A stretch of 32,597 bases of DNA from a virus (taxonomy: Duplodnaviria > Caudoviricetes). The notes below the pieces were generated by a model. That model ran no database searches. It saw only the letters and a program-made list of their open reading frames with translations, and was not told where the DNA came from. A program made the position numbers and the translations under genes. Positions 3,438-20,182 of this stretch are shown here, piece by piece (the stretch's first letter is position 1; every line of letters starts with the position of its first letter). The stretch lies in IMG/VR virus record IMGVR_UViG_3300005758_000413, positions 1 to 32,597 of that record; one strand, written 5' to 3'.

Positions 3438-3536
3438 GTGAAGAATATTCTTGCGCGTGTGAAGAAAGTTCTTGGACTCTTCTAAAAAGTCTTTGATACT
3501 TCATTCATACCGCAACCACTTCACAGGAGCACTCAA
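3438..3536 (+). promoter_or_regulatory. Early sigma70-like promoter cassette, copy 1, with tandem AAGAA-N2-TTCTT boxes and RBS
   Basis: TTGGAC (3472-3477), 17 bp, GATACT (3495-3500); CAGGAG RBS; near copy at 18573-18644. Confidence 0.8.
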
Positions 3537-4177: not shown

Positions 4178-5098
4178 ATGGCCAAAACGCCGCTCGCCGC
4201 ACTCGCTGGAGTGCCAGACTACGAACAACACCCACTCGCCGCATCGCTGATGCCCGGTGGCATGTCAACTGAAGAGTTTGACGCATTCGCTGAGGATGTT
4301 GCCGCCCGTGGCATCATCTACCCCATCACAATCTTTGAGGGCAAAGTGCTGGACGGGTGGCACCGCTATCGGGCCGCAGTGCGTACGGGCAGCGCCCTCA
4401 AGACGCAAGAGTACTCAGGCACGGATCCAGCCGGGTACATCGCCGCATGTAACGTCCTGCGCCGCAAGTTGTCAAGCCTGCAACGTGCCCTCGTTGGTGC
4501 GAAGCTGCACCTGGAACACGCCGTGACCCAGCGTGACGTCTGCCGCCGTTTGGGCATTTCCAACACGGTGCTGAGCATGGTGCTCAAGGTGATTGACAGC
4601 CGCAACGCCAAGATCATCAAGCGCATCGAAACGGACAGCGATTACACCCGGGGCATGTTGCGCGAAGACCTGGAAGATGCGGGCCTTGTCCATGCCAACT
4701 ACGGGCGCAAGACTGACGAGGTTGATGCTGACGAGGACGATATGGAGTTCACCGAGCGTGCAGCGGGTCCAGGCAAGGCGGTCGCGAACAGTGTGTTTGA
4801 CATGGCCCGCGCTACGGGTGCTGACGAGCTTGATGAAGACCTCATCGGTGACGATGCGCCGTTGCCCACGGTTGGCAAGAAAGCAAGCCACCCCGAGCGC
4901 CGCACCAAAGACACGCCCGCGCAACGCATGCAAGAACACTTTCGTGAGCTGATGTACGATGAAAAAGCCACATTCATCCAGATGGTGTGGGCAGACCTGC
5001 GCCCCATCGCTGAAGAACTGGGCTTGCCCGGTTTGGTCAACACCGACGTGACAAGCAAAGCCATCAGCAAGGCCAGCAAGGCACGCGCCAAGGCGTAA
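4178..5098 (+). CDS. ParB/Srx-like N-terminal domain protein with HTH
   Basis: HPLA..MP.MS.EEF..F.EDV...G...PI....GKVLDGWHRYRA, N..RR.LS..QRA, then HTH-like TQRDVCRRLGISNTVLS. Confidence 0.8.
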   Translation: MAKTPLAALAGVPDYEQHPLAASLMPGGMSTEEFDAFAEDVAARGIIYPITIFEGKVLDGWHRYRAAVRTGSALKTQEYSGTDPAGYIAACNVLRRKLSSLQRALVGAKLHLEHAVTQRDVCRRLGISNTVLSMVLKVIDSRNAKIIKRIETDSDYTRGMLREDLEDAGLVHANYGRKTDEVDADEDDMEFTERAAGPGKAVANSVFDMARATGADELDEDLIGDDAPLPTVGKKASHPERRTKDTPAQRMQEHFRELMYDEKATFIQMVWADLRPIAEELGLPGLVNTDVTSKAISKASKARAKA

Positions 5099-6338: not shown

Positions 6339-6643
6339 AGCCCGGGCACCTGCGCCAACACGGGGAGATCCGTGCCGCATTGACGCAAGCCCTGCGGACA
6401 CATGGCGGCTTCATGTTTTATACCGAGCTCAAGGCCGCAGCGGGCAACCGCAACATCCAGACGACTCTGCGCCGCATGGTGGACGCCGGGTACGTTCAGT
6501 ATCAGCGCATCGCGCCCCGTGTGGGGGTGTACCGTTGGAATGACGGTGGCGTCTACCCCGTGTGGGTTGACACGCCCCCGCAACGCACGCCCGCAGCCCT
6601 GACTCGCTGGATGCCCTCTTCACCCTATGGAGCCAAGAAATGA
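6320..6643 (+). CDS. Hypothetical protein, possible winged-helix DNA-binding protein
   Basis: GGAG before ATG 6320; MFYTELKAAAG..NIQTTLRRMVDAGYV pattern; ATGA overlap with the next gene. Confidence 0.6.
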   Translation: MVTKKIKPGHLRQHGEIRAALTQALRTHGGFMFYTELKAAAGNRNIQTTLRRMVDAGYVQYQRIAPRVGVYRWNDGGVYPVWVDTPPQRTPAALTRWMPSSPYGAKK

Positions 6644-7359
6644 CAAATAAGACACTGACCCTGCTGACAACCACTGGCGAGCGCCCCGAAGCGTTTGCGC
6701 TGTGCGTGCAGTGGATGAACCGCCAAAACTACGACGGCCCGGTGTCGTGGATCATCGTGGATGATGGCCGCACCCCCGCCGATATCCAGCCCGTGCGCCA
6801 AGACTGGGAAATCATGCTGGTGCAGCCTGAGGACAAGTGGCAACCCGGGCAGAACACGCAAGGCCGCAACCTACGCGCCGGACTGCGTGCCGTGGGTCTG
6901 CTTATGAAACACCGCGAGATGAACCTAGTGATCATCGAGGATGACGATTGGTACGCCGCTGACTGGTTGACAACCGTTGCCTCTGAGCTTAACAATGCCG
7001 AGCTCGTGGGCGAAGGCTGGGCCAGATACTACAACGTGAAACACCAACGCGCCCGCAAGATGCTGAACGACAAGCATGCCAGCCTCTGCTCAACGGCCAT
7101 GCGTGACGGTGCGTTGAAACACTTCTACGAGGTTTGCCTGGACGGGGTGGACTTCATTGACGTGGACTTGTGGAAGGGTCAAGGCTTCACGCGCAAGCTG
7201 TTCGGCGGGCATCGTGTTGTCGGCATCAAGGGGCTCCCGGGCCGTGCTGGGATCGGCATGGGGCACTCCAGCAAGATGCAAGGCTACGCCGACATGGACA
7301 GCAAAATCTTGCGCGACTGGGTTGGCCAAGACGCTGACGCATACTTGCGATTCACTTGA
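6640..7359 (+). CDS. GT-A fold (GT2-like) glycosyltransferase
   Basis: LLTTTGERP..F..C...M..Q.Y....WIIVDDG and an intact DxD-type motif VIIEDDDWY. Confidence 0.85.
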   Translation: MTNKTLTLLTTTGERPEAFALCVQWMNRQNYDGPVSWIIVDDGRTPADIQPVRQDWEIMLVQPEDKWQPGQNTQGRNLRAGLRAVGLLMKHREMNLVIIEDDDWYAADWLTTVASELNNAELVGEGWARYYNVKHQRARKMLNDKHASLCSTAMRDGALKHFYEVCLDGVDFIDVDLWKGQGFTRKLFGGHRVVGIKGLPGRAGIGMGHSSKMQGYADMDSKILRDWVGQDADAYLRFT

Positions 7360-9487: not shown

Positions 9488-9967
9488 ATGACCAAAGCAA
9501 ACGACATCGACGATCTGTTGGGCGACGACGCACCTGCGACCAAAGCCCCCGCCAAGAAAGCCGCAGCCAAGGCACCCGCCAAAGCCGCAGCCAAGGCACC
9601 CACCAAAGCCGCCCCCGCGAAGAAAGCCGTAGCTGACAAGGCCGAAAAGCCCGCAGCCAAAGCCACCCCCGCCAAGGCACCCGCCAAAGCCGCAGCCCCT
9701 GCCAAGGCTGAAAAAGCCGCCAAGGCTGACAAGCCCGCCAAAGTGCGCGAGCCAGTGGAGTTCGAAGACGGTGAAAAGGAAGCGCTGATGAAGCGTGTCC
9801 CCAAGCTGCTGAAGAACCCCATCAACTCCAAGGACCTTGCCGCCAAGATGGAAATCTCCACCCGCAAGCTGCGTCGCGTGCTGTACTCGCTGGAGCGTAC
9901 CGGGGCCATCACCCTCAAGTTGGGCGCAAGCCGCACCGAGGGCATGACGGTAGCCGCAGCGGCCTGA
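9488..9967 (+). CDS. Histone H1-like (PAKAAAK repeats) DNA-binding protein with C-terminal winged-helix-like domain
   Basis: About 70 aa of K/A/P repeats, then INSKDLAAKMEISTRKLRRVLYSLERTGAI. Confidence 0.8.
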   Translation: MTKANDIDDLLGDDAPATKAPAKKAAAKAPAKAAAKAPTKAAPAKKAVADKAEKPAAKATPAKAPAKAAAPAKAEKAAKADKPAKVREPVEFEDGEKEALMKRVPKLLKNPINSKDLAAKMEISTRKLRRVLYSLERTGAITLKLGASRTEGMTVAAAA

Positions 9968-9992
9968 GCCTAACGCTGGCCCCTCAACCCGT

Positions 9993-10027
9993 GCCCCTGT
10001 CGGCCAAATCGGTCGCAGGGGCTTTTT
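9993..10027 (+). terminator. Rho-independent terminator
   Basis: GCCCCTG...CAGGGGC followed by TTTTT. Confidence 0.7.
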
Positions 10028-10058
10028 GTTGACTGTCACCTCGGCTACCCCCTCAACT

Positions 10059-12044
10059 ATGACTAAAAACGCCCTACATCTCGACTACGAAACGTTCAGC
10101 GCGTGCCCCATTGCCAAGTCAGGGGCGTACCGTTACGCACGCCACCAGACCACGGAAGTGCTCATTGCCTCGTACTGGTTGCCGGAAATGGACCCCGACC
10201 TGGACAAGCCGTTGGTCTGGTTGCCCCGCACCCAAAAACCCCCGCGCGACTTGTTGGCCGCAGCCCGGGACAAGGCCATTGAGTTTTGGGCTCATAACGC
10301 TCAGTTTGAACGCGCCGTGTCCACGTGGGCACTGCGACGCATGTACCCCGGGTTCCCAGAGATAGCCATTGAGCGCTGGATGTGTACGGCTGCGCTCGCG
10401 GCCGCGAACGGACTGGCCCGCAACCTGGACACCGCCTTGCAGATGCTGGGCACGGGTGTCGGCAAAGACCCAGAAGGCAAACGGCTCATCAAGAAGTTTT
10501 GCATCCCGCGCAAGCCCACCAAGAACGACCCACGGACGCGCATCTTGCCCGAGGATGACCCAGCCGACTTTGACAAGTTCGTGCGCTACTGCCAACAAGA
10601 CGTCCTCGGTGAACTGGAGCTCCACACGCACCTTCCACCCATGCACCCCGAAGAGCGCCGTTTCTTCCATCTGGACATGCACATGAACGAGCGCGGCTTG
10701 CCGATTGACTTGCCGTTGGTGCGTAAGACATACGACGTGCTCCAGGTGTTGGAAAAGAACATCCATGACGAGGTGGCCAAGCTCACCGGGGGCATCAAGG
10801 CCACGCAACGGGAAAAGATGCTTGCCGTGTTTGCGGGCATGGGCATTGACCTGGAAAACATCCGGGCGCAAACCGTGCGTGATGAACTGGCCAACAACAA
10901 AGACCTCAGCGAGGATGCCCGTCGTTTGCTTCAGTTGCGCGTTGAGGCGGGCAAGGCGTCCACCAAAAAGCTGGTCTCGATGCTGGCCTGCACCGACCCT
11001 GACGACCACGTTGTCCAAGGCGGGTTCCTGTTCCATGGGGCGCATACGGGCCGATACGCTGGCCGACTGGTGCAGCCGCAGAACTTTATCCGTGGGTCGC
11101 TCAAGCCGCACCAACAAGACACGGTCTTTGACTTGCTTGACATGGCCGACCCGGACATCATGGCCATGCTGTACGACTGGCCCATTGACACCATCAGTCA
11201 GTGCATGCGGGGCTTCATGCGTGCCCCGGAGGGCCAACGCTGGGTCGTGGTTGACTACACGGCGATTGAGGCCCGTGTGCTGGCATGGGTGGCCAACGAG
11301 GTGCGAGTGCTGGAGGCGTACCGCAAGGGCGTTGACGTCTACAAGATGATGGCGTCCAGTTTGTTCAGCATCCCAATCGAGAAGGTGGATAGCGAGCAAC
11401 GCCGCCTCGGCAAGAACTTGGTGCTCGGTTGCGGGTACTCGCTGGGCGGGGCACGGTTCGTCGAATACTGCGCCGGACTTGGCCAAGTGGTGGATCCAGC
11501 ATTCGCCGTGAAGGCCGTGAAGATGTACCGTGATCAGCACAAAGGCATCGTGAGCCTCTGGAAAGAAGTTGAGGACGCCGCCGCTGAGGCTATCCGTAGC
11601 CCGGGCAAGCGAACCGAGGTGGCCCGCTGCACGATGTTCATGCGCGAGCATTGGTTCTGCATCCAGTTGCCAAGCGGGCGCGAAATCCGCTACGCCAAAG
11701 CACGGGCCACGCCCGTTGAGCGCTGGGGCAAGCCCGGGTTCCAGATCAGTTTCATGACAGAGTTCCACGGTAAGGTCGTGCGCGAAACAACCTACGGGGG
11801 CAAGCTGGTTGAGAACATCGTGCAAGGTATAGCCCGTGACGTGATGCGTGAGGGCATGTTCAGCGCCGAAGAGGCCGGGTATCCGTGTCACGGTACAGTC
11901 CATGACGAATTGCTCACACTGCGCCAGCATGGCGAGGGCAGTCATCACGAGCTCGAGAAGATTGTCTGCACCTTGCCCAAATGGACACGGGGCATCCCAC
12001 TCAATGCGGAGGGCTTCGAATGCGTGCGCTATCGCAAGGGTTGA
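10059..12044 (+). CDS. polA: Family A DNA polymerase with 3'-5' exonuclease domain
   Basis: Exonuclease motifs LDYET, AHNAQFER, YC.QDV; HTGRYAG; motif A DYTAIEAR; motif B R..GKNLVLG.GY; motif C VHDE. Confidence 0.96.
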   Translation: MTKNALHLDYETFSACPIAKSGAYRYARHQTTEVLIASYWLPEMDPDLDKPLVWLPRTQKPPRDLLAAARDKAIEFWAHNAQFERAVSTWALRRMYPGFPEIAIERWMCTAALAAANGLARNLDTALQMLGTGVGKDPEGKRLIKKFCIPRKPTKNDPRTRILPEDDPADFDKFVRYCQQDVLGELELHTHLPPMHPEERRFFHLDMHMNERGLPIDLPLVRKTYDVLQVLEKNIHDEVAKLTGGIKATQREKMLAVFAGMGIDLENIRAQTVRDELANNKDLSEDARRLLQLRVEAGKASTKKLVSMLACTDPDDHVVQGGFLFHGAHTGRYAGRLVQPQNFIRGSLKPHQQDTVFDLLDMADPDIMAMLYDWPIDTISQCMRGFMRAPEGQRWVVVDYTAIEARVLAWVANEVRVLEAYRKGVDVYKMMASSLFSIPIEKVDSEQRRLGKNLVLGCGYSLGGARFVEYCAGLGQVVDPAFAVKAVKMYRDQHKGIVSLWKEVEDAAAEAIRSPGKRTEVARCTMFMREHWFCIQLPSGREIRYAKARATPVERWGKPGFQISFMTEFHGKVVRETTYGGKLVENIVQGIARDVMREGMFSAEEAGYPCHGTVHDELLTLRQHGEGSHHELEKIVCTLPKWTRGIPLNAEGFECVRYRKG

Positions 12045-12337
12045 AGCTGCGCCTGCAGACCGAAGACACGGTTGAAAAGCACTTGCGCAAGCGGGTCAAG
12101 AAGATGCGAGGGCTTTGCATCAAGATCCGTTTGTTGCCCGGGTGGCCTGACCGCTTGGTGTTCCTGCACGGGGGCATCTTGGTCTTCTTCGAGCTCAAGC
12201 GGCCCAAAGGGGGGAAGTTTGAACCACGACAACCGCGCGTTCATAAGATGCTGCGCGAGTTCGGATTTGCCGTGTACGTGGCCAACACCAAAGAATTGAT
12301 TGACGAAATACTGGACACCCACTATGCTCAACCGTGA
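12041..12337 (+). CDS. VRR-NUC domain nuclease
   Basis: E..VE..L...VK...GLC.K....GWPDRL......FFELK.P.G; sits between PolA and SNF2. Start uncertain (TTG 12041). Confidence 0.88.
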   Translation: MKLRLQTEDTVEKHLRKRVKKMRGLCIKIRLLPGWPDRLVFLHGGILVFFELKRPKGGKFEPRQPRVHKMLREFGFAVYVANTKELIDEILDTHYAQP

Positions 12338-13742
12338 CAACCTGCGCAACTATCAGCGCCGCGCATACACGTTCATCAAGCGCAACCCGCAGTCCGGCCT
12401 CTTTCTGGACATGGGCCTCGGCAAGACCGTGAGCACACTTACCGCTTTGACAGATCTATTCGAGAGCGGGGACGTGCGCCGTGTGTTGCTGGTCGCGCCG
12501 CTCAAGGTGGTTCAAGGCGTGTGGGCGCAAGAGGCCAAGAAGTGGGCACACACGAAACACCTGACGTTCAAGCTGATACACGGTGACGAGCGCCAACGCC
12601 TGCAAGCGTTGCAAAGCACGGCCGATGTTCACCTGATCAACGTGGAAAACCTGCGATGGTTGCTGTACGTGCTGAAGAACGCCGCCAAGCGCAAGAACTT
12701 CCAATGGCCGTATGACACGCTCATCATTGATGAGTCATCGTTGTTCAAGTCGCCAAGCGCCAAACGGTTCGTCACGTTGCGCCACACGCTCAACCGCTTT
12801 GAGCGCCGTCACATCCTAACGGGCACGCCCAGCCCAAACGGGTTGATGGATCTGTGGTCGCAGTTGTTCATCGTGGACAAGGGCCAACGCCTCGGCGAGA
12901 ACGTCAAACGCTACCGTGAGCGCTTTTTCAACTCGGCCGGGTACATGGGATATTCTTACGAGCCAGTGGCCGAGGCCAAAGAAAAGATCGCGGAGCTCAT
13001 AAGCCCGGTCATCCTCACCATGCGTGCCGAAGACTGGTTGGAACTGCCCCCGCTCATCAAGGACGAGGTCTGGGTTGACCTGCCCGCACCCGCCCGCAAG
13101 ATGTACGACAAAATGGAACGTGAGATGTTCCTGGAACTGGAGCAAGGCACCGCCGAGGCTGCGCACGCCGCAAGCGTGACGGCCAAGTGCCACCAGATAG
13201 CGAACGGAGCGCTCTTCCTCGAGGACAGCCGTGGTGACAAGGTGTGGCAAGCCGTGCACGAAGCCAAGCTGGAAGCCCTGCAAGAGATCTTGGAAGGCAC
13301 GGGGTCAAACGCATTGGTCGCGTATTACTTCAAACATGACCTGGAGCGCCTGCGCAAAGCGTTTCCCAAAGCGCCCGTCATCAAGGACGCCAAGAATCAG
13401 GCGCAGTTGGACAAGATGCAAAACGAGTGGAACGCTGGCGAGCATCGCGTGATGCTTATCCACCCGCAAGGTGCAGGCCACGGGCTCAACCTGCAAGACG
13501 GTGGTCACTTGCTTGTCTTCTACTCCATGCTCTTTGGTCATGAGCCGTATCGGCAAGTGATTGAGCGCATTGGCCCCGCACGCCAAGTCGGCAAGGCGAA
13601 GCGGGTGCTGGTGAAGCATATCCTGGCCCGCGACACGGTTGACGAGGCTCTTCTTGCATCTCAGCGAAGAAAGTTTGATGATGAGCGGGGTTTTATTGCA
13701 TCATTGCACGAGTACCGTCAGATCAAGGAGATGCTGGGATGA
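12324..13742 (+). CDS. SNF2-family (SF2) helicase
   Basis: LRNYQ, LDMGLGKT, IIDESS, LTGTPSPN, GHGLNLQ. Confidence 0.93.
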   Translation: MLNRDNLRNYQRRAYTFIKRNPQSGLFLDMGLGKTVSTLTALTDLFESGDVRRVLLVAPLKVVQGVWAQEAKKWAHTKHLTFKLIHGDERQRLQALQSTADVHLINVENLRWLLYVLKNAAKRKNFQWPYDTLIIDESSLFKSPSAKRFVTLRHTLNRFERRHILTGTPSPNGLMDLWSQLFIVDKGQRLGENVKRYRERFFNSAGYMGYSYEPVAEAKEKIAELISPVILTMRAEDWLELPPLIKDEVWVDLPAPARKMYDKMEREMFLELEQGTAEAAHAASVTAKCHQIANGALFLEDSRGDKVWQAVHEAKLEALQEILEGTGSNALVAYYFKHDLERLRKAFPKAPVIKDAKNQAQLDKMQNEWNAGEHRVMLIHPQGAGHGLNLQDGGHLLVFYSMLFGHEPYRQVIERIGPARQVGKAKRVLVKHILARDTVDEALLASQRRKFDDERGFIASLHEYRQIKEMLG

Positions 13743-14332
13743 ACATTTATTATCTGTTGCGCAAAGGTGAAGACCCCGCCCGCGAGTTGGACAACTTGTA
13801 CGGGGAGTCACACCGAATCCGTGTGCTGCGCAACTTCTACGAAGCCCGTGAGCGTGCATTCGCGCACGCGCATGAGACCGGGGTGCGTCACTGCCTGATA
13901 ATCGCGGGCAAGGCTGACCCCCGTTGGATGCACTGGCCCAGCACGGCCAAAACCCGGTCACTGTCGCTGGCCAGCATGGCAAACCCCGAGCCCCGGCATG
14001 ACCACGCCTTGCTCCTGTATGCGCGTCGCTTGCTGCGTCAGCACGCCTCCGCCGTGGTCGTGCCGCCGCTGGGTGCGTTGCCGCAGATGCGCCGGGGCTG
14101 GGAAGAGAACATGCCACTCGCTCCCGTGGTGGCTGCGTACCGAGTGCCCTCCGTGATGGCCGTTGACCACACGGGGCCGGGGCTGGAGTACAATCTCGTG
14201 AGCAACGGTTGCCGAGTGCTGGCCCTGAGTGACTTTGGGCACCGCATGACGGGCGAGCCGTTGCTGGACACTTACGGAAGCGCAATCAAATGGAAACGGG
14301 CATATGAGCACACTCAAAAGACTCTCTTCTAA
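13739..14332 (+). CDS. Highly diverged TET/JBP-associated glycosyltransferase (TAGT)-like protein, apparently lacking catalytic acids
   Basis: Resembles TAGT segments R....HA...G....II, EN......AYR, L...G...L and terminal I.WKRAY, but DDD is replaced by AGK and no ED motif is seen. First gene of the modification cluster. Confidence 0.5.
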   Translation: MNIYYLLRKGEDPARELDNLYGESHRIRVLRNFYEARERAFAHAHETGVRHCLIIAGKADPRWMHWPSTAKTRSLSLASMANPEPRHDHALLLYARRLLRQHASAVVVPPLGALPQMRRGWEENMPLAPVVAAYRVPSVMAVDHTGPGLEYNLVSNGCRVLALSDFGHRMTGEPLLDTYGSAIKWKRAYEHTQKTLF

Positions 14333-14900
14333 ACTGGTCTACATCCATGGCACCAACGGGAGCGGGAAAAGCACGCTGGCCCGTGCCCTGTTGGCCGCAG
14401 CCGCGCACCCCACGGGCATCGAACACCTCCCAGGCAACCCCAAAGCCTCCTGGACCAACACGGCCGGAGGTGTGGTGTTCATTGGCAAATATGGCAACGC
14501 CTGCGGGGGCGTAGATGGCCTTTCGCCCTATGCGTCGATCAAAGATATCGTCGGTATGCACGCTGACGAGGGCGGGGTAATGCTGGCCGAAGGGCTTGTC
14601 ACGCCGGGTCTGGCCACGTGCCAAGAGTTGGCCAACATGGTGAACACGCACCTGTTCATTCACTTGGACGTACCGTTGGAGGCGTGCGTGGCCAACGTGC
14701 TGACGCGCCGCAGCCGCAAGGGCACCGACAAGCCCTACGACACGGCAAACCTGATCAAGAAACGCGCATCCGCAGAAAGCTGGATCCGCCGTCTGGGCGA
14801 AGCTGGCCTCGCTGTTCAGATTTGTTCTTGGAATGAGGCATACTTGCGATGTCTGGAGTTCTTGGAACTGCAAGACTTTGACCACACTAATCTTCTATAA
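14304..14900 (+). CDS. P-loop nucleotide kinase of thymidine-hypermodification clusters
   Basis: HGTNGSGKST, IGKY..ACGGVD, AEG, LD.PLE.C..NV..RR; adjacent to the dUMP hydroxymethylase. Confidence 0.8.
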   Translation: MSTLKRLSSKLVYIHGTNGSGKSTLARALLAAAAHPTGIEHLPGNPKASWTNTAGGVVFIGKYGNACGGVDGLSPYASIKDIVGMHADEGGVMLAEGLVTPGLATCQELANMVNTHLFIHLDVPLEACVANVLTRRSRKGTDKPYDTANLIKKRASAESWIRRLGEAGLAVQICSWNEAYLRCLEFLELQDFDHTNLL

Positions 14901-14910
14901 GGAAACCACG

Positions 14911-16008
14911 ATGACACTCAAAACAATGCAAGACGCACCTCACGGCATGTACGGCTTCGGCCTGACCGTGCGCAACGTCAACGAGGCTTTGCCCCTTGGC
15001 CTGCAACTGGTGCAATCACACGGAGTACCCGTTACCTCGCGCGGGTTGGCCACGCTGGAAGTTCCAGGCCCAGTCACCACGATCTACCGCGCCCCTGAAG
15101 AGCGGGTGTTGTTCTGCCCCATCCGTGATGCAAACCCGTTCTTCCACTTCTTCGAGTCCTTGTGGATTCTTGCTGGTGCTCGCACGGTGCATCTGCCCCG
15201 CACGTTCCTGCAACGCATCGAAGATTATAGCGATGACGGCAAAGAGTTTCATGGGGCGTACGGCCATCGCCTGATGCACGCCTACGGGTTTGACCAGTTG
15301 GAAAAGGCTGGGGAGATCCTGGCCACGCGCCCCGACAGCCGTCAAGTCGTGTGCAGCATCTGGCATCCAACGCTGGACCTCGGTATGGCCACAAAGGACA
15401 CCCCCTGCAACGACATGATCATGTTCAAGGTGCGCGACGGCATGCTCAACATGACGGTGAACAACCGCTCCAACGACGTTATCTGGGGCGCATACGGGGC
15501 CAACGCCGTTCAGTTCAGCATCATCCAGGAGTACGTTGCCGCCCTTGCTGGCACGACCGTGGGTTACTACACGCAAGTGAGTGACTCGTATCACGTGTAC
15601 GTGGATAATCCACTCTGGCAGAAGTTCGCTTCGGGTCAATACATGCCGGAAGGCCACGTGGTCAACCCGTACAACATGGGCGACCTATCAGTAGCCCCGC
15701 GTCCTATGTTCCACGACCGTGCTGATGCGCTGGCATGCCGTGCGGATGCGCAGTTGCTGAACCAAATGGCGGAGAAGGGCGTTATCCATCACGCGCCTGT
15801 CGCCTGGATGAACAAAAAGTTCACCTCCTCGTTGTTCAACGATGTGGCCATCCCCATGCTCTTGGCTTTCTTCAATTACAAATCGGGTGACATGGACGGG
15901 GCGTGGCGCATGGCCAACGACAACATCAAAGCCCGCGACTGGGCCGCTGCGTGTGGCCAGTGGATCAGCCGCCGTGACCGTGCCCGCAAGGCAAAGGAGC
16001 AAGCATGA
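14911..16008 (+). CDS. Thymidylate synthase-superfamily dUMP hydroxymethyltransferase
   Basis: SRG, ERVLF...RDANPFFH.FE.LW.LAG, YSDDG..FHGAYG.R, catalytic KD.PCN, NRSND..WGAYGAN (Asn indicating dUMP specificity), S.H.Y. Confidence 0.9.
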   Translation: MTLKTMQDAPHGMYGFGLTVRNVNEALPLGLQLVQSHGVPVTSRGLATLEVPGPVTTIYRAPEERVLFCPIRDANPFFHFFESLWILAGARTVHLPRTFLQRIEDYSDDGKEFHGAYGHRLMHAYGFDQLEKAGEILATRPDSRQVVCSIWHPTLDLGMATKDTPCNDMIMFKVRDGMLNMTVNNRSNDVIWGAYGANAVQFSIIQEYVAALAGTTVGYYTQVSDSYHVYVDNPLWQKFASGQYMPEGHVVNPYNMGDLSVAPRPMFHDRADALACRADAQLLNQMAEKGVIHHAPVAWMNKKFTSSLFNDVAIPMLLAFFNYKSGDMDGAWRMANDNIKARDWAAACGQWISRRDRARKAKEQA

Positions 16009-16130
16009 AAAAGTTTCTAGAACTACTGGTCGGCGGGACGCTGGTCTGGGCCGTTGCGTGGATGGTGCTGGGCCTGTTGGCCAAAGTAACGGCATTCTTC
16101 TTCATGCTGGGCTGGGGGGCTGTCTTATGA
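16005..16130 (+). CDS. 41-aa membrane protein (not in the ORF track)
   Basis: AAGGAG RBS; ATGA overlaps at both ends; MKKFLELLVGGTLVWAVAWMVLGLLAKVTAFFFMLGWGAVL. Confidence 0.7.
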   Translation: MKKFLELLVGGTLVWAVAWMVLGLLAKVTAFFFMLGWGAVL

Positions 16131-16441
16131 ACTGCTGCGACTACGACTGCAATCAGGGACGCAACTGCCCCGCACGCAAAACCCCGGTCGCGGGGGCTGT
16201 CCCCAGCACGGGCGAAGGGTTCTGGCCACTGTTGTTCAAGCTGCGCACCCATGCACGCCCCGCCCCGCTTGACCCACGGACGTTTGAACCCGTTGCGTGG
16301 TGGTACGAGGTTGCATGCGGGGGGATGTCCCCCTACTTTGAGTGGAGGTTAACGAGCAACTTCGCCGACACGGAAGGAGCCCGCCGTGTGCGCCCCCTTA
16401 TCTTTGCCGAGCCCGGGTTTACGAAAGCGGACATCACATGA
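16127..16441 (+). CDS. Hypothetical protein with a Cys-rich N-terminus (MNCCDYDCNQGRNCPAR)
   Basis: ATGA-coupled on both sides. Confidence 0.7.
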   Translation: MNCCDYDCNQGRNCPARKTPVAGAVPSTGEGFWPLLFKLRTHARPAPLDPRTFEPVAWWYEVACGGMSPYFEWRLTSNFADTEGARRVRPLIFAEPGFTKADIT

Positions 16442-16995
16442 CCACGCACTTTGAACACGCCTGCCTCATGCGTGATGCCGGGGCCGTCAAGCGATATCAC
16501 ACGGTTCGCACTGCACGCATCCAAACCGTCGCTGAACACACGTTCGGCGTCATGCAACTGATCCAACAAATCTACCCCGACGCACGGAAGGAAGTCTTGT
16601 TGGCCGCGATGCACCACGATCTTCCAGAATACGTGACGGGCGATGTGCCTGCACCCATCAAGCGCCAACTCCCACGACTGGCCATCTTGCTGGAAGAAGC
16701 CGAGCGCGGTACTGCCCCGCTCTACCAAGACTTCAACTTGACAGCGTTTGAAGAAGCCGTTGTCAAGTGGTGTGACTTGATGGAGTTGGTGCTTTGGTGT
16801 CTGGAAGAAGTGCAAATGGGCAACACCTACGCGATGCACCCGTGCATCAAGGGGCTGTCCTGGCTCTGGGACGCATACGACGGCCTCGTTGCGCAAAACC
16901 CCATGACCAACACTGCGCGAAAATTGCTGCGTGAGACCACTGAGGCCGCACGCAAGGCCGGAATCACACTTACCGTAGAACACACAAAGGATTGA
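16438..16995 (+). CDS. HD-domain deoxynucleotide phosphohydrolase (YfbR/DatZ-like)
   Basis: VKRYH, TVAEH, HHDLPE..TGD.P.P.K, VK.CD..E. Confidence 0.88.
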   Translation: MTTHFEHACLMRDAGAVKRYHTVRTARIQTVAEHTFGVMQLIQQIYPDARKEVLLAAMHHDLPEYVTGDVPAPIKRQLPRLAILLEEAERGTAPLYQDFNLTAFEEAVVKWCDLMELVLWCLEEVQMGNTYAMHPCIKGLSWLWDAYDGLVAQNPMTNTARKLLRETTEAARKAGITLTVEHTKD

Positions 16996-17000
16996 ACAAC

Positions 17001-17453
17001 ATGAGCGCAAACGATACCCAAGTTGCGGGCACGCACTACCGCACCGAGTTCCAGCATTGGGACCTCGTGGTGGCCACTGGGATGGGATACTTTGAAGGTC
17101 AAGTGAGCAAGTACACCACGCGCCACCGCAAGAAGAACGGACTGCAAGACCTCGAGAAGGCGTTGCACTTCGCACGCAAGGGCTACGAACTTTCCATGTC
17201 CGGCCGCATCTCGCCACGCCTGCACCCCATTGAAGCGGCCATCGTGCTCTTTGATGACTACGCCCACGCCAACGAGCTCAACGTGGTGGAGTCCACCATC
17301 GTGCGCCGTGTTGCTCAGTGGTACGCCCCCAAAGACTGGCGAGACATCATCCAGTACATCCAACGGCTCATCACCCAGCACTACGAACCAGTCGACGAGG
17401 CGGGCGAACACGACGCCGAAGCTGGCCCGGGCTACGTGAACCAGGACCGTTGA
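17001..17453 (+). CDS. DUF3310 (SaV / T7 gp1.7-like nucleotide kinase) domain protein
   Basis: QV.G.HY, Q.WD, YFEG...KY..R.RKKNG..DL.KA.HF. Alternative start TTG 16992. Confidence 0.85.
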   Translation: MSANDTQVAGTHYRTEFQHWDLVVATGMGYFEGQVSKYTTRHRKKNGLQDLEKALHFARKGYELSMSGRISPRLHPIEAAIVLFDDYAHANELNVVESTIVRRVAQWYAPKDWRDIIQYIQRLITQHYEPVDEAGEHDAEAGPGYVNQDR

Positions 17454-17454
17454 C

Positions 17455-18339
17455 ATGACCGCCATCCCCACACTTGAGCAAGCCCGCCCATTCCTGCGGT
17501 TCGTGATCGCCCGTCACCGGGTGTGGATCAACCGCACTGCGGGCAAGCCTGCACCCTGGACCGATGACGCCATCTTGCAAAACTATCGGTTCTGCAACGT
17601 GTATCGAGAACTGGACAAGGTGACGCTCTGGGTTCGCAAGAACTGGAGCGCCGACTACGGTAGCGACCCCGATCTTTGGTTTGCGATGGTGGTGGCTCGC
17701 CTAGTGAACTTGCCCAGCACGCTCAACCGTTTGCAGCCGTTGCCGTGGGTGCCGAAACGCTTTGTGGAAACGCTGGAGGCGCAAGCTAAGGTCGGCGTCA
17801 CGGTGTTCGGGCCTGCGTACATCGTGTCCACCAACGGGCACGCCATGCCGAAGGCGCAGTATCTAGCCGACATGGTGCTGAACCCTATGTGGAAGGCCCG
17901 TGCTGACCTGCGCCCGCAAGAGCGCGAACCGTTGCAGGCGTATCACGCACGGCTGATGTCTATGCAAGGCATGGGGTCGTTCATGGCCGCGCAAGTGGTG
18001 GCTGATATCAAGAACACGCCGGGGTCGCAACTGCGCAAGTCCAAAGACTGGTGGGACTGGGCTGCGCCCGGGCCTGGGAGCCTGCGTGGCCTGAGCCGTG
18101 TGCTGGGCCGTGGTGCGGTTAGAACTGGCCTGCGCGAGCCTGACTGGTTGGCCGGGGTGCAGTATTTGCGCGATCAAGTGAACGATCGCTTCACGTCACT
18201 GGGCTGGGAGCCAGTGTGTTCGCAAGACACCCAGAACTGCCTCTGTGAGTTTGACAAGTACGAACGCGCACGGCTGGGCGAAGGTAAACCGAAACAGAAG
18301 TTCCCGGGGGCGGGCAGTCAAACGGAGTTGTTCAAATGA
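17455..18339 (+). CDS. 5-hydroxymethyluracil DNA kinase (aGPT-Pplase1 / 5-HMUDK helical family)
   Basis: P.PWT.D.IL..YRFCNVYRE.D, G.GSFMA.QVVAD, PGPGS.RGL, QNCLCEFDKY.R. Confidence 0.9.
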   Translation: MTAIPTLEQARPFLRFVIARHRVWINRTAGKPAPWTDDAILQNYRFCNVYRELDKVTLWVRKNWSADYGSDPDLWFAMVVARLVNLPSTLNRLQPLPWVPKRFVETLEAQAKVGVTVFGPAYIVSTNGHAMPKAQYLADMVLNPMWKARADLRPQEREPLQAYHARLMSMQGMGSFMAAQVVADIKNTPGSQLRKSKDWWDWAAPGPGSLRGLSRVLGRGAVRTGLREPDWLAGVQYLRDQVNDRFTSLGWEPVCSQDTQNCLCEFDKYERARLGEGKPKQKFPGAGSQTELFK

Positions 18340-18578
18340 GTGCCGTGTACGGATGCCACAATCACGCGCCGTTCAAGCCGTTCGTTGAGGTGCAGGCCGG
18401 GTGGAGCGCAGCCACGATGCCCGGGGTAGAACCCAGCACGCGCCGCCCGCACGTCATACGGATACCCTTCCGCATGTCCATGGACTGCAAGTATGATCTT
18501 CACCACGTGGATCCAAAGTGCAAGGGGTGTTCACATGTTGCGCCACCGCAACAAATGGAATTTTCTTTTGATGTGTGA
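18336..18578 (+). CDS. Small Cys/His-rich hypothetical protein
   Basis: ATGA overlap with the kinase gene; YGCHN, C.Y...DPKC.GC.H. Confidence 0.7.
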   Translation: MSAVYGCHNHAPFKPFVEVQAGWSAATMPGVEPSTRRPHVIRIPFRMSMDCKYDLHHVDPKCKGCSHVAPPQQMEFSFDV

Positions 18579-18650
18579 AGAAAGTTCTTGCGCTCTTCTA
18601 AGAATATCCTGAAACTTCAGTCATACCGCAACCACTCACTGGAGTTCAAC
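18573..18650 (+). promoter_or_regulatory. Early promoter cassette, copy 2
   Basis: TTGCGC (18588-18593), 17 bp, GAAACT (18611-18616); shares GTGTGAAGAAAGTTCTTG and TCATACCGCAACCACT with copy 1. Confidence 0.8.
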
Positions 18651-18890
18651 ATGCCCGCCAACACATACAACCCCAACGTCCGCCACCTGGACACCGCCAT
18701 CGCCATCCTCGGCGCAGGCAAGCAAAACCGCAAGCCTCGTACCCCAGCCGTTCACCTCATCGACCTTGGCGGTGTGTTCGCCGTGCAAGTCAACGGCAAG
18801 ATGGTTGCGCAGTTCATCGATCACGCCGAGGCCCGCGCTGACGCTACCCGCCGCGCTGACAAAGTTGGCGTCACCGTGTTGGAGTACTGA
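18651..18890 (+). CDS. Small hypothetical protein
   Basis: GGAG RBS directly after promoter copy 2. Confidence 0.75.
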   Translation: MPANTYNPNVRHLDTAIAILGAGKQNRKPRTPAVHLIDLGGVFAVQVNGKMVAQFIDHAEARADATRRADKVGVTVLEY

Positions 18891-18894
18891 CACC

Positions 18895-19278
18895 ATGACC
18901 CGCATCAACCTAGTCCACCCCTCCACGCTTTGCGACAAGCATCTGGGCGCTGAGTACCGTGAGCTCCCCCGTGTGTTCGGCCTAGTGCGTGCCGCTGCGG
19001 CCCGTGGTGAGCGCCCCGCTGACCCCCGCAACCCTACGGAGTTCCGTCTTGGTTCTGGCCATGTCCGGTTCTTCTATCCACGCCTCGGCTGGCTCGTTGA
19101 GCGGTACATGCTGCTCGTGCAGGAATGCCAGCGTCGCGGCCGCACCGTCAACTTCACCGCACCGGACACGCACGGCATTCCCGTTGAGTGGTTCGGCTAC
19201 TGGCAACCCAATGAGCGCGATCTTGCGCTGTCCCAGGCCCGCATCTTGGCCAAACTTCCTAAAGGAGCACAATCATGA
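18895..19278 (+). CDS. denV: Pyrimidine-dimer DNA glycosylase / endonuclease V
   Basis: MTRINL......L.D.HL.AEYRELPRVF ... F.LG.GHV.FFY..L..L..R...L..E...RG, matching the T4 endonuclease V pattern. Confidence 0.95.
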   Translation: MTRINLVHPSTLCDKHLGAEYRELPRVFGLVRAAAARGERPADPRNPTEFRLGSGHVRFFYPRLGWLVERYMLLVQECQRRGRTVNFTAPDTHGIPVEWFGYWQPNERDLALSQARILAKLPKGAQS

Positions 19279-20158: not shown

Positions 20159-20182
20159 GAGGCCCCCTGCGGGCCTCTTTTT
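20159..20182 (+). terminator. Terminator of the + strand early operon
   Basis: GAGGCCC-CCTGC-GGGCCTC-TTTTT. Confidence 0.85.

What the first reader, a model, noticed from the sequence alone, without database searches (positions are those of the whole stretch)
13739..18578. 5hmdU hypermodification cluster with a DNA kinase but no amino-acid:DNA transferase: possibly a new thymidine modification
Seen: one translationally coupled run of TAGT-like protein, P-loop kinase, dUMP hydroxymethylase, HD hydrolase, DUF3310 and 5hmdU DNA kinase. Established: in M6/YuA, ViI, phiW-14 and SP10, 5hmdU in DNA is (pyro)phosphorylated by the kinase and then substituted by an amino-acid:DNA transferase (aGPT-Pplase2), often with PLP, radical SAM or flavin tailoring enzymes. 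I recognise none of these partners in the early arm, which appears complete from promoter (3.47 kb) to terminator (20.18 kb). Inference: the end product differs from known bases. Options are a terminal (pyro)phospho-methyl-dU, a sugar or sugar-phosphate adduct made with the GT-A at 6640, or a substitution by an unrecognised small protein (13739, 16127 or 18336).
Basis: partly seen in the sequence, partly recalled or inferred. Interest (0 to 1): 0.85.

Follow-up and report, generated by a model that had tools for sequence, protein, structure and literature searches.

The report
Transferase-less thymine-modification cassette in phages
This uncultured phage, like six near-complete relatives, carries genes that likely make hydroxymethyluracil DNA and phosphorylate it but has no detectable gene for the enzyme that normally swaps that phosphate for an amino acid, so its DNA is predicted to keep a phosphorylated base while a related, uncharacterised enzyme likely turns the remaining hydroxymethyluracil back into thymine.

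Summary
17455-18339 is not the kinase: it is aGPT-Pplase clade 1 (M6 gp55 homologue, 36%), an uncharacterised AADT paralogue that keeps the catalytic cysteine. The kinase candidate is the P-loop gene 14304-14900 (M6 gp54 family).

Six relatives at 92-100% completeness have hydroxymethylase, kinase and Pplase1 without AADT, so the missing 15% of this genome is unlikely to explain the gap. In the same clade the mirror form (AADT, no Pplase1) also occurs, including cultured Rhodoferax phage P26218.

The proposed substitutes fail. 13739 is a TAGT-like GT-A fold lacking DxD (0 of 43 rows) and persists in genomes with no hmU genes. GT-A 6640 is absent from complete relatives.

Best reading (about 0.4): virion DNA holds T plus terminal 5-phosphomethyl-dU, with Pplase1 converting the other hmU to T, a step described as unknown in print. 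Main rival: Pplase1 acts as the transferase; SP10 has no detectable AADT yet makes glutamylthymine. No chemistry was tested. The scan earlier noted the kinase-less sister cassette on other DNA, not this form.

The parts
13739..14332 (+). Degenerate TAGT-like GT-A protein (197 aa), likely non-catalytic; accessory, not tied to the hmU pathway
   Evidence: 41 relatives at under 50% identity; profile match to neighbouring TAGT family, probability 86%, P 5e-6, against P 0.16-0.59 for 7 control families; model pLDDT 96, best viral matches GT-A/TAGT; DxD/DD in 0 of 43 rows against DDD in 23 of 23 TAGT rows; also in G054/G055, which lack hydroxymethylase, Pplase1 and AADT
14304..14900 (+). P-loop 5-hmdU DNA kinase candidate (M6 gp54 family), intact
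   Evidence: PF18748 27.7 bits, cut-off 27; M6 gp54 27% identity, E 4e-7; E 8e-36 to a profile of other phage kinases built without the three closest relatives; carries all 12 invariant columns of a 20-row alignment that includes it; activity not tested
14911..16008 (+). dUMP hydroxymethylase candidate (365 aa from the likely start; longest ORF starts at 14833)
   Evidence: 39% to M6 gp58, E 3e-63; closer to solved CMP hydroxymethylase (E 5e-22) than to thymidylate synthases (best 1.5e-10); PC...RSND...GAYGAN motif shared with M6 gp58 and P26218 gp16
16005..16130 (+). 41-aa hydrophobic ORF, strain-level accessory
   Evidence: found only in L001 and L083 of 209 loci
16127..16441 (+). 104-aa variable ORF, strain-level accessory
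   Evidence: found only in L001 (45%) and L083 (partial) of 209 loci; no Pfam hit
16438..16995 (+). HD 5'-deoxynucleotidase-like protein (M6 gp59 homologue); inferred to deplete dT nucleotides
   Evidence: PF12917 E 3e-12; 37% to gp59
16992..17453 (+). DUF3310 protein (M6 gp61 homologue), conserved member of the cassette, role unknown
   Evidence: in 53 of 80 Pplase1 loci
17455..18339 (+). aGPT-Pplase clade 1 (PF18723, M6 gp55 homologue); AADT paralogue with invariant Cys264; not the kinase
   Evidence: nearest other family by language-model features is PF18724 (0.93); C264, E265 and K268 conserved in all 71 rows; Q260-N261-C-L-C264 aligns with AADT E-T-x-x-C, but the profile alignment is weak (P 0.011-0.29)
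18336..18578 (+). 80-aa Cys/His-rich ORF, mobile accessory
   Evidence: homologues in L001, L002 and L155 only, and in L155 it lies between the VRR and helicase genes; absent from G008 and G014
18573..18644 (+). Second copy of a promoter-like 70-nt element; marks the spot where relative L002 carries an AADT gene and the window has none
   Evidence: copy at 3457-3529; L002:5716-6606 is PF18724, E 6e-35, between the 18336 and 18651 homologues
6640..7359 (+). GT-A glycosyltransferase; judged not part of the DNA-modification system
   Evidence: no homologue in G008, G014, G016, G018 or G003; 27 of 28 viral relatives have no hmU-pathway gene in the fetched locus, and the 3 inspected sit among head and head-tail connector genes

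Best explanation
The cassette likely makes phage DNA with hydroxymethyluracil in place of thymine, the P-loop kinase likely phosphorylates a sequence-defined fraction of it, and, with no amino-acid:DNA transferase gene detectable, that 5-phosphomethyl-dU is predicted to remain as the final base while Pplase1 (17455) likely converts the unphosphorylated remainder to thymine. Shown: gene identities by homology, intact motifs, no detectable AADT here or in six near-complete relatives. Inferred from characterised homologues: hmdUMP synthesis and base phosphorylation. Inferred from gene distribution and old genetics only: that Pplase1 works without the kinase, that its product is T (Cys264 adding to C6, loss of water, hydride from an unidentified donor), and that the phosphate persists into the virion as an anti-restriction mark.
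For: (a) The kinase is intact and is kept without AADT in G008, G014, G016, G018, G078 and G086 (92-100% complete); PF18724, PF18746 and two home-made AADT profiles are negative while controls ring. None of the six has a TAGT, GT-B-like or rSAM/SPASM substitute of the families tested. (b) Among 64 loci with hydroxymethylase and Pplase1, 20 have the kinase, 41 have a glycosyltransferase-like gene, 0 have both and 3 have neither; the Pplase1 tree interleaves the two kinds with the same active-site motif. So Pplase1 does not depend on the kinase, and the kinase behaves like one of several interchangeable caps for the same hydroxyl. (c) Of 17 records at least 90% complete in the Pplase1-selected set of 50, 11 have no kinase. 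(d) M6, ViI, PhiW-14 and SP10 all encode Pplase1 and their virion DNA has no hmU, only T and the modified base; M6 gp55 is dispensable for glycine transfer; the M6 AADT with borohydride gives T (PMC8989533). (e) PhiW-14 am37, defective in putrescinylation, accumulates phosphorylated hmU in DNA (PMC5977210 passage) although the phage encodes Pplase1. (f) M6 gp54 phosphorylates about 23% of hmU in vitro and this blocks NcoI. (g) The AADT metal ligands E and T are Q260 and N261 here.
Against: No chemistry, no isolate, no expression data. SP10 has a kinase-Pplase1 fusion and no PF18724 match, yet makes glutamylthymine, so 'no AADT' need not mean 'no transfer'. In the kinase-selected set 0 of 17 near-complete kinase genomes lack both paralogues (both 7, AADT only 6, Pplase1 only 4), which hints that phospho-hmU needs processing; Fisher p = 0.24 and the genomes are related. 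In the window's clade AADT-only and Pplase1-only forms alternate on the hydroxymethylase tree, as if one could stand in for the other. am37 is a conditional-lethal mutant, so phosphorylated DNA may not package, and the passage read does not map it to a gene. Kinase/GT exclusivity is not absolute: L012 (left out of the count of 64 because the fragment has no hydroxymethylase) and G091 carry both. The GT-B label of 2 of the 3 GT-B-like clusters is weak. The kinase passes the Pfam cut-off by only 0.7 bit.
Confidence: 0.4

Rival explanations
1. Pplase1 stands in for AADT: it takes the kinase product 5-PmdU, expels phosphate through Cys264 and adds a host nucleophile (amino acid, amine or thiol), giving a new or SP10-like substituted thymine.
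For: Catalytic Cys kept. The nearest other family is AADT. AADT-only and Pplase1-only forms alternate in the clade and no near-complete kinase genome lacks both, 0 of 17. SP10 makes glutamylthymine with a kinase-Pplase1 fusion and no detectable AADT. A kinase-Pplase1 fusion cluster of 76 members exists in the Atlas.
Against: Pplase1 with the same motif occurs in 41 kinase-less loci and does not group by partner. M6 and ViI virions show only one extra nucleoside although both paralogues are present. SP10's domain has E at the position where the window has Q260. SP10 has other candidates, such as the 896-aa gp185.
Confidence: 0.23
2. No new base: hmU is only transient. The kinase activates it and Pplase1 reduces it, or the phosphate is hydrolysed, so the virion holds plain T, or T plus hmU.
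For: Phosphate is a good leaving group and the paralogue forms T with borohydride. Kinase and Pplase1 are adjacent or fused in many phages. Extra negative charge may hinder packaging (inference).
Against: Kinase-less Pplase1 genomes show phosphorylation is not generally required. am37 accumulates the phosphorylated base. An ATP-consuming route to unmodified DNA would give no protection on entry (inference).
Confidence: 0.22
3. A sugar or sugar-phosphate adduct is built by 13739 or by GT-A 6640, or an unrecognised small ORF (16127, 18336) substitutes the phosphate.
For: 13739 has a GT-A/TAGT fold, is a conserved family and overlaps the kinase gene. It has conserved acidic residues elsewhere (D165 in 93% of rows, D177 in 79%), so metal-independent or altered catalysis is not excluded.
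Against: DxD is absent in 43 of 43 rows and the acidic ED(F/Y)D helix aligns to G-L/L-G. 13739 occurs beside AADT (L002, L125, L127, L155) and in genomes with no hmU pathway, and is not found in 4 of the 6 kinase-plus-Pplase1 genomes. 6640, 16127 and 18336 are absent from complete relatives G008 and G014.
Confidence: 0.09
4. An AADT lies in the missing 15% of the genome, or is too divergent to detect, and the product is an amino-acid or amine thymine of known type.
For: The record is linear and 85% complete. The closest cassette relative, L002, has an AADT. One divergent AADT-like gene (G091) escaped PF18724 and was found only by a second profile.
Against: Two circular-complete clade members lack it (G008, G014). 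The L002 insertion site is empty in the window. Both profile types are negative on all six frames.
Confidence: 0.06

Closest known systems
M6/YuA, PaMx11, ViI, PhiW-14 and SH-Ab 15599 thymidine hypermodification (PMC8989533, PMC13458397)
   Same: dUMP hydroxymethylase, HD nucleotidase, DUF3310, P-loop 5-HMUDK and aGPT-Pplase1 are all present; homologues of M6 gp54, 55, 58, 59 and 61.
   Different: No clade 2 AADT, PLP, rSAM, flavin enzyme or dCMP deaminase detected; a genome of about 38 kb by the 85% completeness estimate; a degenerate TAGT-like gene upstream.
Bacillus phage SP10 (gp186 kinase-Pplase1 fusion; glutamylthymine plus T)
   Same: Kinase and Pplase1 with no detectable PF18724.
   Different: Here the genes are separate, there is no gp185-like rSAM protein and no second kinase; the Pplase1 motif has Q-N where SP10 has E-G.
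Rhodoferax phage P26218 (cultured member of the same replication-module clade)
   Same: Same gene order from polymerase and helicase to kinase (52% identity), hydroxymethylase, HD and DUF3310.
   Different: It has an AADT and no Pplase1, the mirror image of the window; I did not look up its base composition.
Kinase-less Pplase1 + thymidylate-synthase-like + glycosyltransferase cassettes (pelagiphages, PMC9599517 passages; scan note e1-9745358)
   Same: Pplase1 and hydroxymethylase core without AADT.
   Different: Those carry intact TAGT or GT-B-like genes in place of the kinase.

Membership tests
5-PmdU/AADT thymidine hypermodification pathway | dUMP hydroxymethylase gene | tested here: met
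   39% to M6 gp58, shared motif, closer to hydroxymethylase structures than to TS; homology only
5-PmdU/AADT thymidine hypermodification pathway | P-loop 5-HMUDK gene | tested here: met
   14304-14900:
5-PmdU/AADT thymidine hypermodification pathway | clade 2 aGPT-Pplase (AADT, E-T-x-x-C) | tested here: not met
   15% of the genome unseen, but complete relatives also negative
5-PmdU/AADT thymidine hypermodification pathway | substituted thymine in virion DNA | not testable with these tools
   needs LC-MS
aGPT-Pplase clade 1 (PF18723) | full-length profile match and M6 gp55 homology with conserved C-E-x-x-K-Y motif | tested here: met
   E 1e-41
5-hmdU DNA kinase (for 17455) | P-loop kinase domain as in M6 gp54 and SP10 gp186 N-terminus | tested here: not met
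   17455 matches only PF18723; the kinase domain alone of SP10 gp186 is active
TAGT glycosyltransferase (PF20691) (for 13739) | GT-A fold related to TAGT | tested here: met
TAGT glycosyltransferase (PF20691) (for 13739) | DxD/DDD metal-binding motif and acidic ED(F/Y)D helix; Pfam match | tested here: not met
   0 of 43 rows; no PF20691 match
hmU phages of SPO1 type (unmodified hmU) | absence of kinase and aGPT-Pplase genes | tested here: not met
   both present; SPO1 used as the negative genome in PMC5889632

The most novel reading that the evidence does not exclude
These small phages package DNA whose thymine positions are partly 5-phosphomethyl-dU, a natural base-phosphorylated genome, and Pplase1 is the long-missing enzyme that turns hydroxymethyluracil into thymine on the DNA polymer. 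The clade offers natural single-gene dropouts: Pplase1-only genomes (T plus phospho-base) and AADT-only genomes such as cultured P26218 (predicted to keep plain hmU beside an amine- or amino-acid-thymine).
Probability: 0.35. Interest if true: 0.82.

Novelty: new variant of a known kind. Interest (0 to 1): 0.62.

Why it matters
How hmU becomes T in replicated phage DNA is stated to be unknown (PMC5889632; PMC5977210), and Pplase1 has no assigned activity in the papers found by searches. Minimal cassettes that keep kinase and Pplase1 but drop AADT, and sister genomes that do the reverse, isolate this protein's role and name two decisive experiments, one of them on an existing isolate. Under the best reading a phosphorylated base would be a final DNA letter rather than an intermediate. 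Under the first rival a second transferase family would be revealed and SP10's unassigned glutamylation explained.

Tried and rejected
Single-sequence fold of 13739 failed (pLDDT 32); the 43-row alignment worked. The Atlas feature search for 13739 gave only methyltransferase hits at 0.81 or lower, treated as noise. tblastn of 13739 and 6640 against isolated phages found nothing. PDB fold search of 13739 gave no hit at E 0.001 or better, though the top rows were GT-A and nucleotidyltransferase folds. 17455 has no PDB sequence match at E 1, and the kinase matches only the RecA Walker A stretch. Profile alignment of Pplase1 to AADT is weak, so the residue equivalence rests on a short motif. The careful Pplase1 tree did not finish; the quick tree was used, and the trees are FastTree only. 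G091 was first counted as AADT-less and then moved to 'both' after a divergent AADT-like ORF was found. G070 is counted as AADT-only but has a weak Pplase1-like match far from the cassette. A borderline AADT-profile score in G086 (E 0.002) is of the same size as the hit on its HD protein and was dismissed. One search had no positive control; supplies one. No complex prediction of 13739 with the kinase was obtained, so binding is untested. Iyer 2013 and Witmer and Wiatr 1985 could not be read; supplements of the Lee papers (S7, S8, S14) were not opened and may hold data on gp55/gp160. No metagenome-collection, GTDB or sequencing-read search was completed.
Full report
Setting. The window is the whole record held (32,597 bases, linear, 85% complete). 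The + strand arm runs from about 3.5 kb to a terminator-like hairpin at 20159-20177 and holds exonuclease, SSB, PolA, VRR nuclease, SNF2 helicase and the cluster in question. The - strand holds lysis, tail and head-completion genes at the right and an HNH gene at the left end. The unseen part is therefore most likely terminase, portal and capsid (inference).

Observation. From the helicase stop to 18578, seven of nine junctions overlap and two are gaps of 10 and 1 nt. Pfam gives PF18748 for 14304 (27.7 bits, cut-off 27), PF00303 for 14833, PF12917 for the HD gene, PF11753 for 16992 and PF18723 for 17455. No AADT (PF18724), aGPT-Pplase3, TAGT, radical SAM or DAO-family match exists in the record. 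M6 gp52, gp53 and gp65 give no tblastn row at E under 1, and gp51 gives only a 27-residue match at E 0.98.

A correction. In Lee et al. 2021 (PMC8989533; I read the abstract and sections 4, 15, 16, 17, 21, 23 and passages) the proven kinases are P-loop proteins (M6 gp54, ViI gp67 and gp243, PhiW-14 gp37, SP10 gp186, whose kinase domain alone is active), the product is the monophosphate 5-PmdU, and gp55 can be left out of glycine transfer. SP10 gp186 is a PF18748 + PF18723 fusion, which probably explains the Pfam name. The kinase candidate here is 14304-14900: E 4e-7 to gp54, E 8e-36 to a profile of other phage kinases, and it carries all 12 invariant columns of a 20-row alignment. 17455 is aGPT-Pplase clade 1. 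Its nearest other family by language-model features is AADT (0.93). Its C264, E265 and K268 are conserved in all 71 rows, and Q260-N-C-L-C264 lines up with the AADT E-T-x-x-C motif, although the profile alignments are weak (P 0.29 and 0.011). In AADT that Cys is catalytic and E and T bind the metal (PMC13458397 section 37; PMC11472151 passages).

Is the AADT really missing? Of 50 records chosen from the 80 Pplase1 loci and one 13739 locus, 17 were at least 90% complete; 6 had the kinase and 2 of those had AADT. Of 50 records chosen from the kinase and 13739 scans, 19 were at least 90% complete and 17 had the kinase: 7 have both paralogues (G091 counted through a divergent AADT-like ORF), 6 have AADT only (G070 has a weak Pplase1-like match elsewhere), 4 have Pplase1 only, and none has neither. 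Merged, six genomes (G008, G014, G016, G018, G078, G086; three with direct terminal repeats) have hydroxymethylase, kinase and Pplase1 without AADT. Six-frame searches of their whole sequences with a standard and a divergent AADT profile, TAGT, three GT-B-like clusters and an rSAM/SPASM cluster were negative while four control loci rang. G008 and G014 share the window's whole replication module. The closest cassette relative, L002, has an AADT gene between the homologues of 18336 and 18651; the window has about 70 nt there, filled by a second copy of a promoter-like element.

The proposed substitutes. It lacks DxD in 43 of 43 rows against DDD in 23 of 23 neighbouring TAGTs. It occurs beside AADT (L002, L125, L127, L155), in two complete genomes with no hydroxymethylase, Pplase1 or AADT, and it is absent from four of the six AADT-less genomes. 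GT-A 6640 has over 1,000 relatives but none in G008, G014, G016, G018 or G003; 27 of 28 viral relatives have no hmU gene in the fetched locus, and the three I inspected lie between capsid and head-tail connector genes. 16127 is found in 2 of 209 loci; 18336 in 5 of 209, three of them overlapping cuts of one contig.

What Pplase1 does. Among the 64 of 80 loci with a hydroxymethylase, 20 carry the kinase, 41 a glycosyltransferase-like gene, none both and 3 neither; closely related Pplase1 proteins pair with different partners on the tree. Exceptions lie outside this count (L012, G091), the loci are not independent, and the GT-B assignment is weak for two clusters. Even so, Pplase1 usually works without a kinase. 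The four classic phages all encode it (Table 3 of PMC5889632, passages; that table swaps the M6 gp51 and gp55 labels relative to the 2021 paper), their virions hold T and one modified base but no hmU, and the hmU-to-T step is stated to be unknown. The M6 AADT converts 5-PmdU to T when given borohydride, so the fold can support this chemistry. I infer that Pplase1 is the T-forming enzyme; the hydride source is unidentified.

What the kinase product becomes. With no AADT, the simplest outcome is that 5-PmdU stays. PhiW-14 am37, blocked in putrescinylation, accumulates the phosphorylated base (PMC5977210 passage), and phosphorylation blocks NcoI in vitro. Against this: am37 is conditionally lethal; no near-complete kinase genome lacks both paralogues (0 of 17, p = 0.24); AADT-only and Pplase1-only forms alternate in the clade; and SP10 makes glutamylthymine with no PF18724 match in 144 kb and no convincing hit from my profiles on the five neighbouring proteins tested. 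I put terminal 5-PmdU plus T at 0.40, Pplase1 as transferase at 0.23, no new base at 0.22, a sugar or small-protein route at 0.09 and a hidden AADT at 0.06.

Comparison and novelty. The cassette works like the first two steps of the M6/ViI/PhiW-14 pathway but fails membership on the AADT feature. Searches of the held library found no paper assigning an activity to Pplase1 or reporting 5-PmdU as a mature virion base; the library lacks many subscription papers, Iyer 2013 and Witmer and Wiatr 1985 could not be read, and supplements were not opened. Kinase-less Pplase1 cassettes are noted in pelagiphages (PMC9599517 passages) and in phage RP13 (PMC13697223 passages). The cultured clade member P26218 has the mirror form and allows an immediate test. 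Verdict: a new variant of a known kind. The gene content is well supported; the chemistry is untested.

Noticed in passing
window 3457-3529 and 18573-18644: Two copies of a 70-nt element, each ending in a ribosome-binding-like GGAG before an ATG; probably a phage early promoter that opens the early arm and, again, the genes downstream of the cassette.
   Followed up: partly
L206 (NC_029061.1) 9773-12244: Cultured Rhodoferax phage P26218 has AADT, kinase and hydroxymethylase but no Pplase1; its AADT group (A-E-T-V-C-C-V-F-K-Q-H in clade loci) is only about 28% identical to M6 gp51, so its donor molecule may be new. RefSeq labels the kinase 'terminase small subunit', as it does for M6 gp54 and SP10 gp186.
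   Followed up: partly
L129 and L130, 9902-10477: The degenerate TAGT-like gene is kept next to the helicase in two complete genomes that have no hydroxymethylase, Pplase1 or AADT, pointing to a role unrelated to hmU chemistry.
   Followed up: partly
L164:8985-9995, L171:8347-9357, L194:8381-9448, L192:9058-10008 and related loci: A divergent AADT-like group of about 335-390 aa with an E-S-x-x-C motif in most members, missed by a profile of typical AADTs; my profile rang in 30 loci.
   Followed up: partly
window 6640-7359; L098-L124: This GT-A family normally sits among head and head-tail connector genes of HK97-like phages and in Stenotrophomonas genomes, suggesting virion or surface glycosylation; here it lies in the early arm.
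   Followed up: partly
window 18766-19278: Endonuclease V-like pyrimidine-dimer glycosylase downstream of the cassette, shared with L001 and L002.
   Followed up: no
L008, L045-L052, L060, L061: Pplase1 homologues in large phage contigs with no hydroxymethylase or kinase within the fetched flanks.
   Followed up: no
G070:29383-30132: A weak, divergent PF18723 match far from the modification cassette in an AADT-bearing genome.
   Followed up: no
window 4178-5098: ParB-like/HTH protein conserved in the clade's early arm; a ParB-dependent T-dioxygenase class appears in search listing 13, but no link was tested.
   Followed up: no
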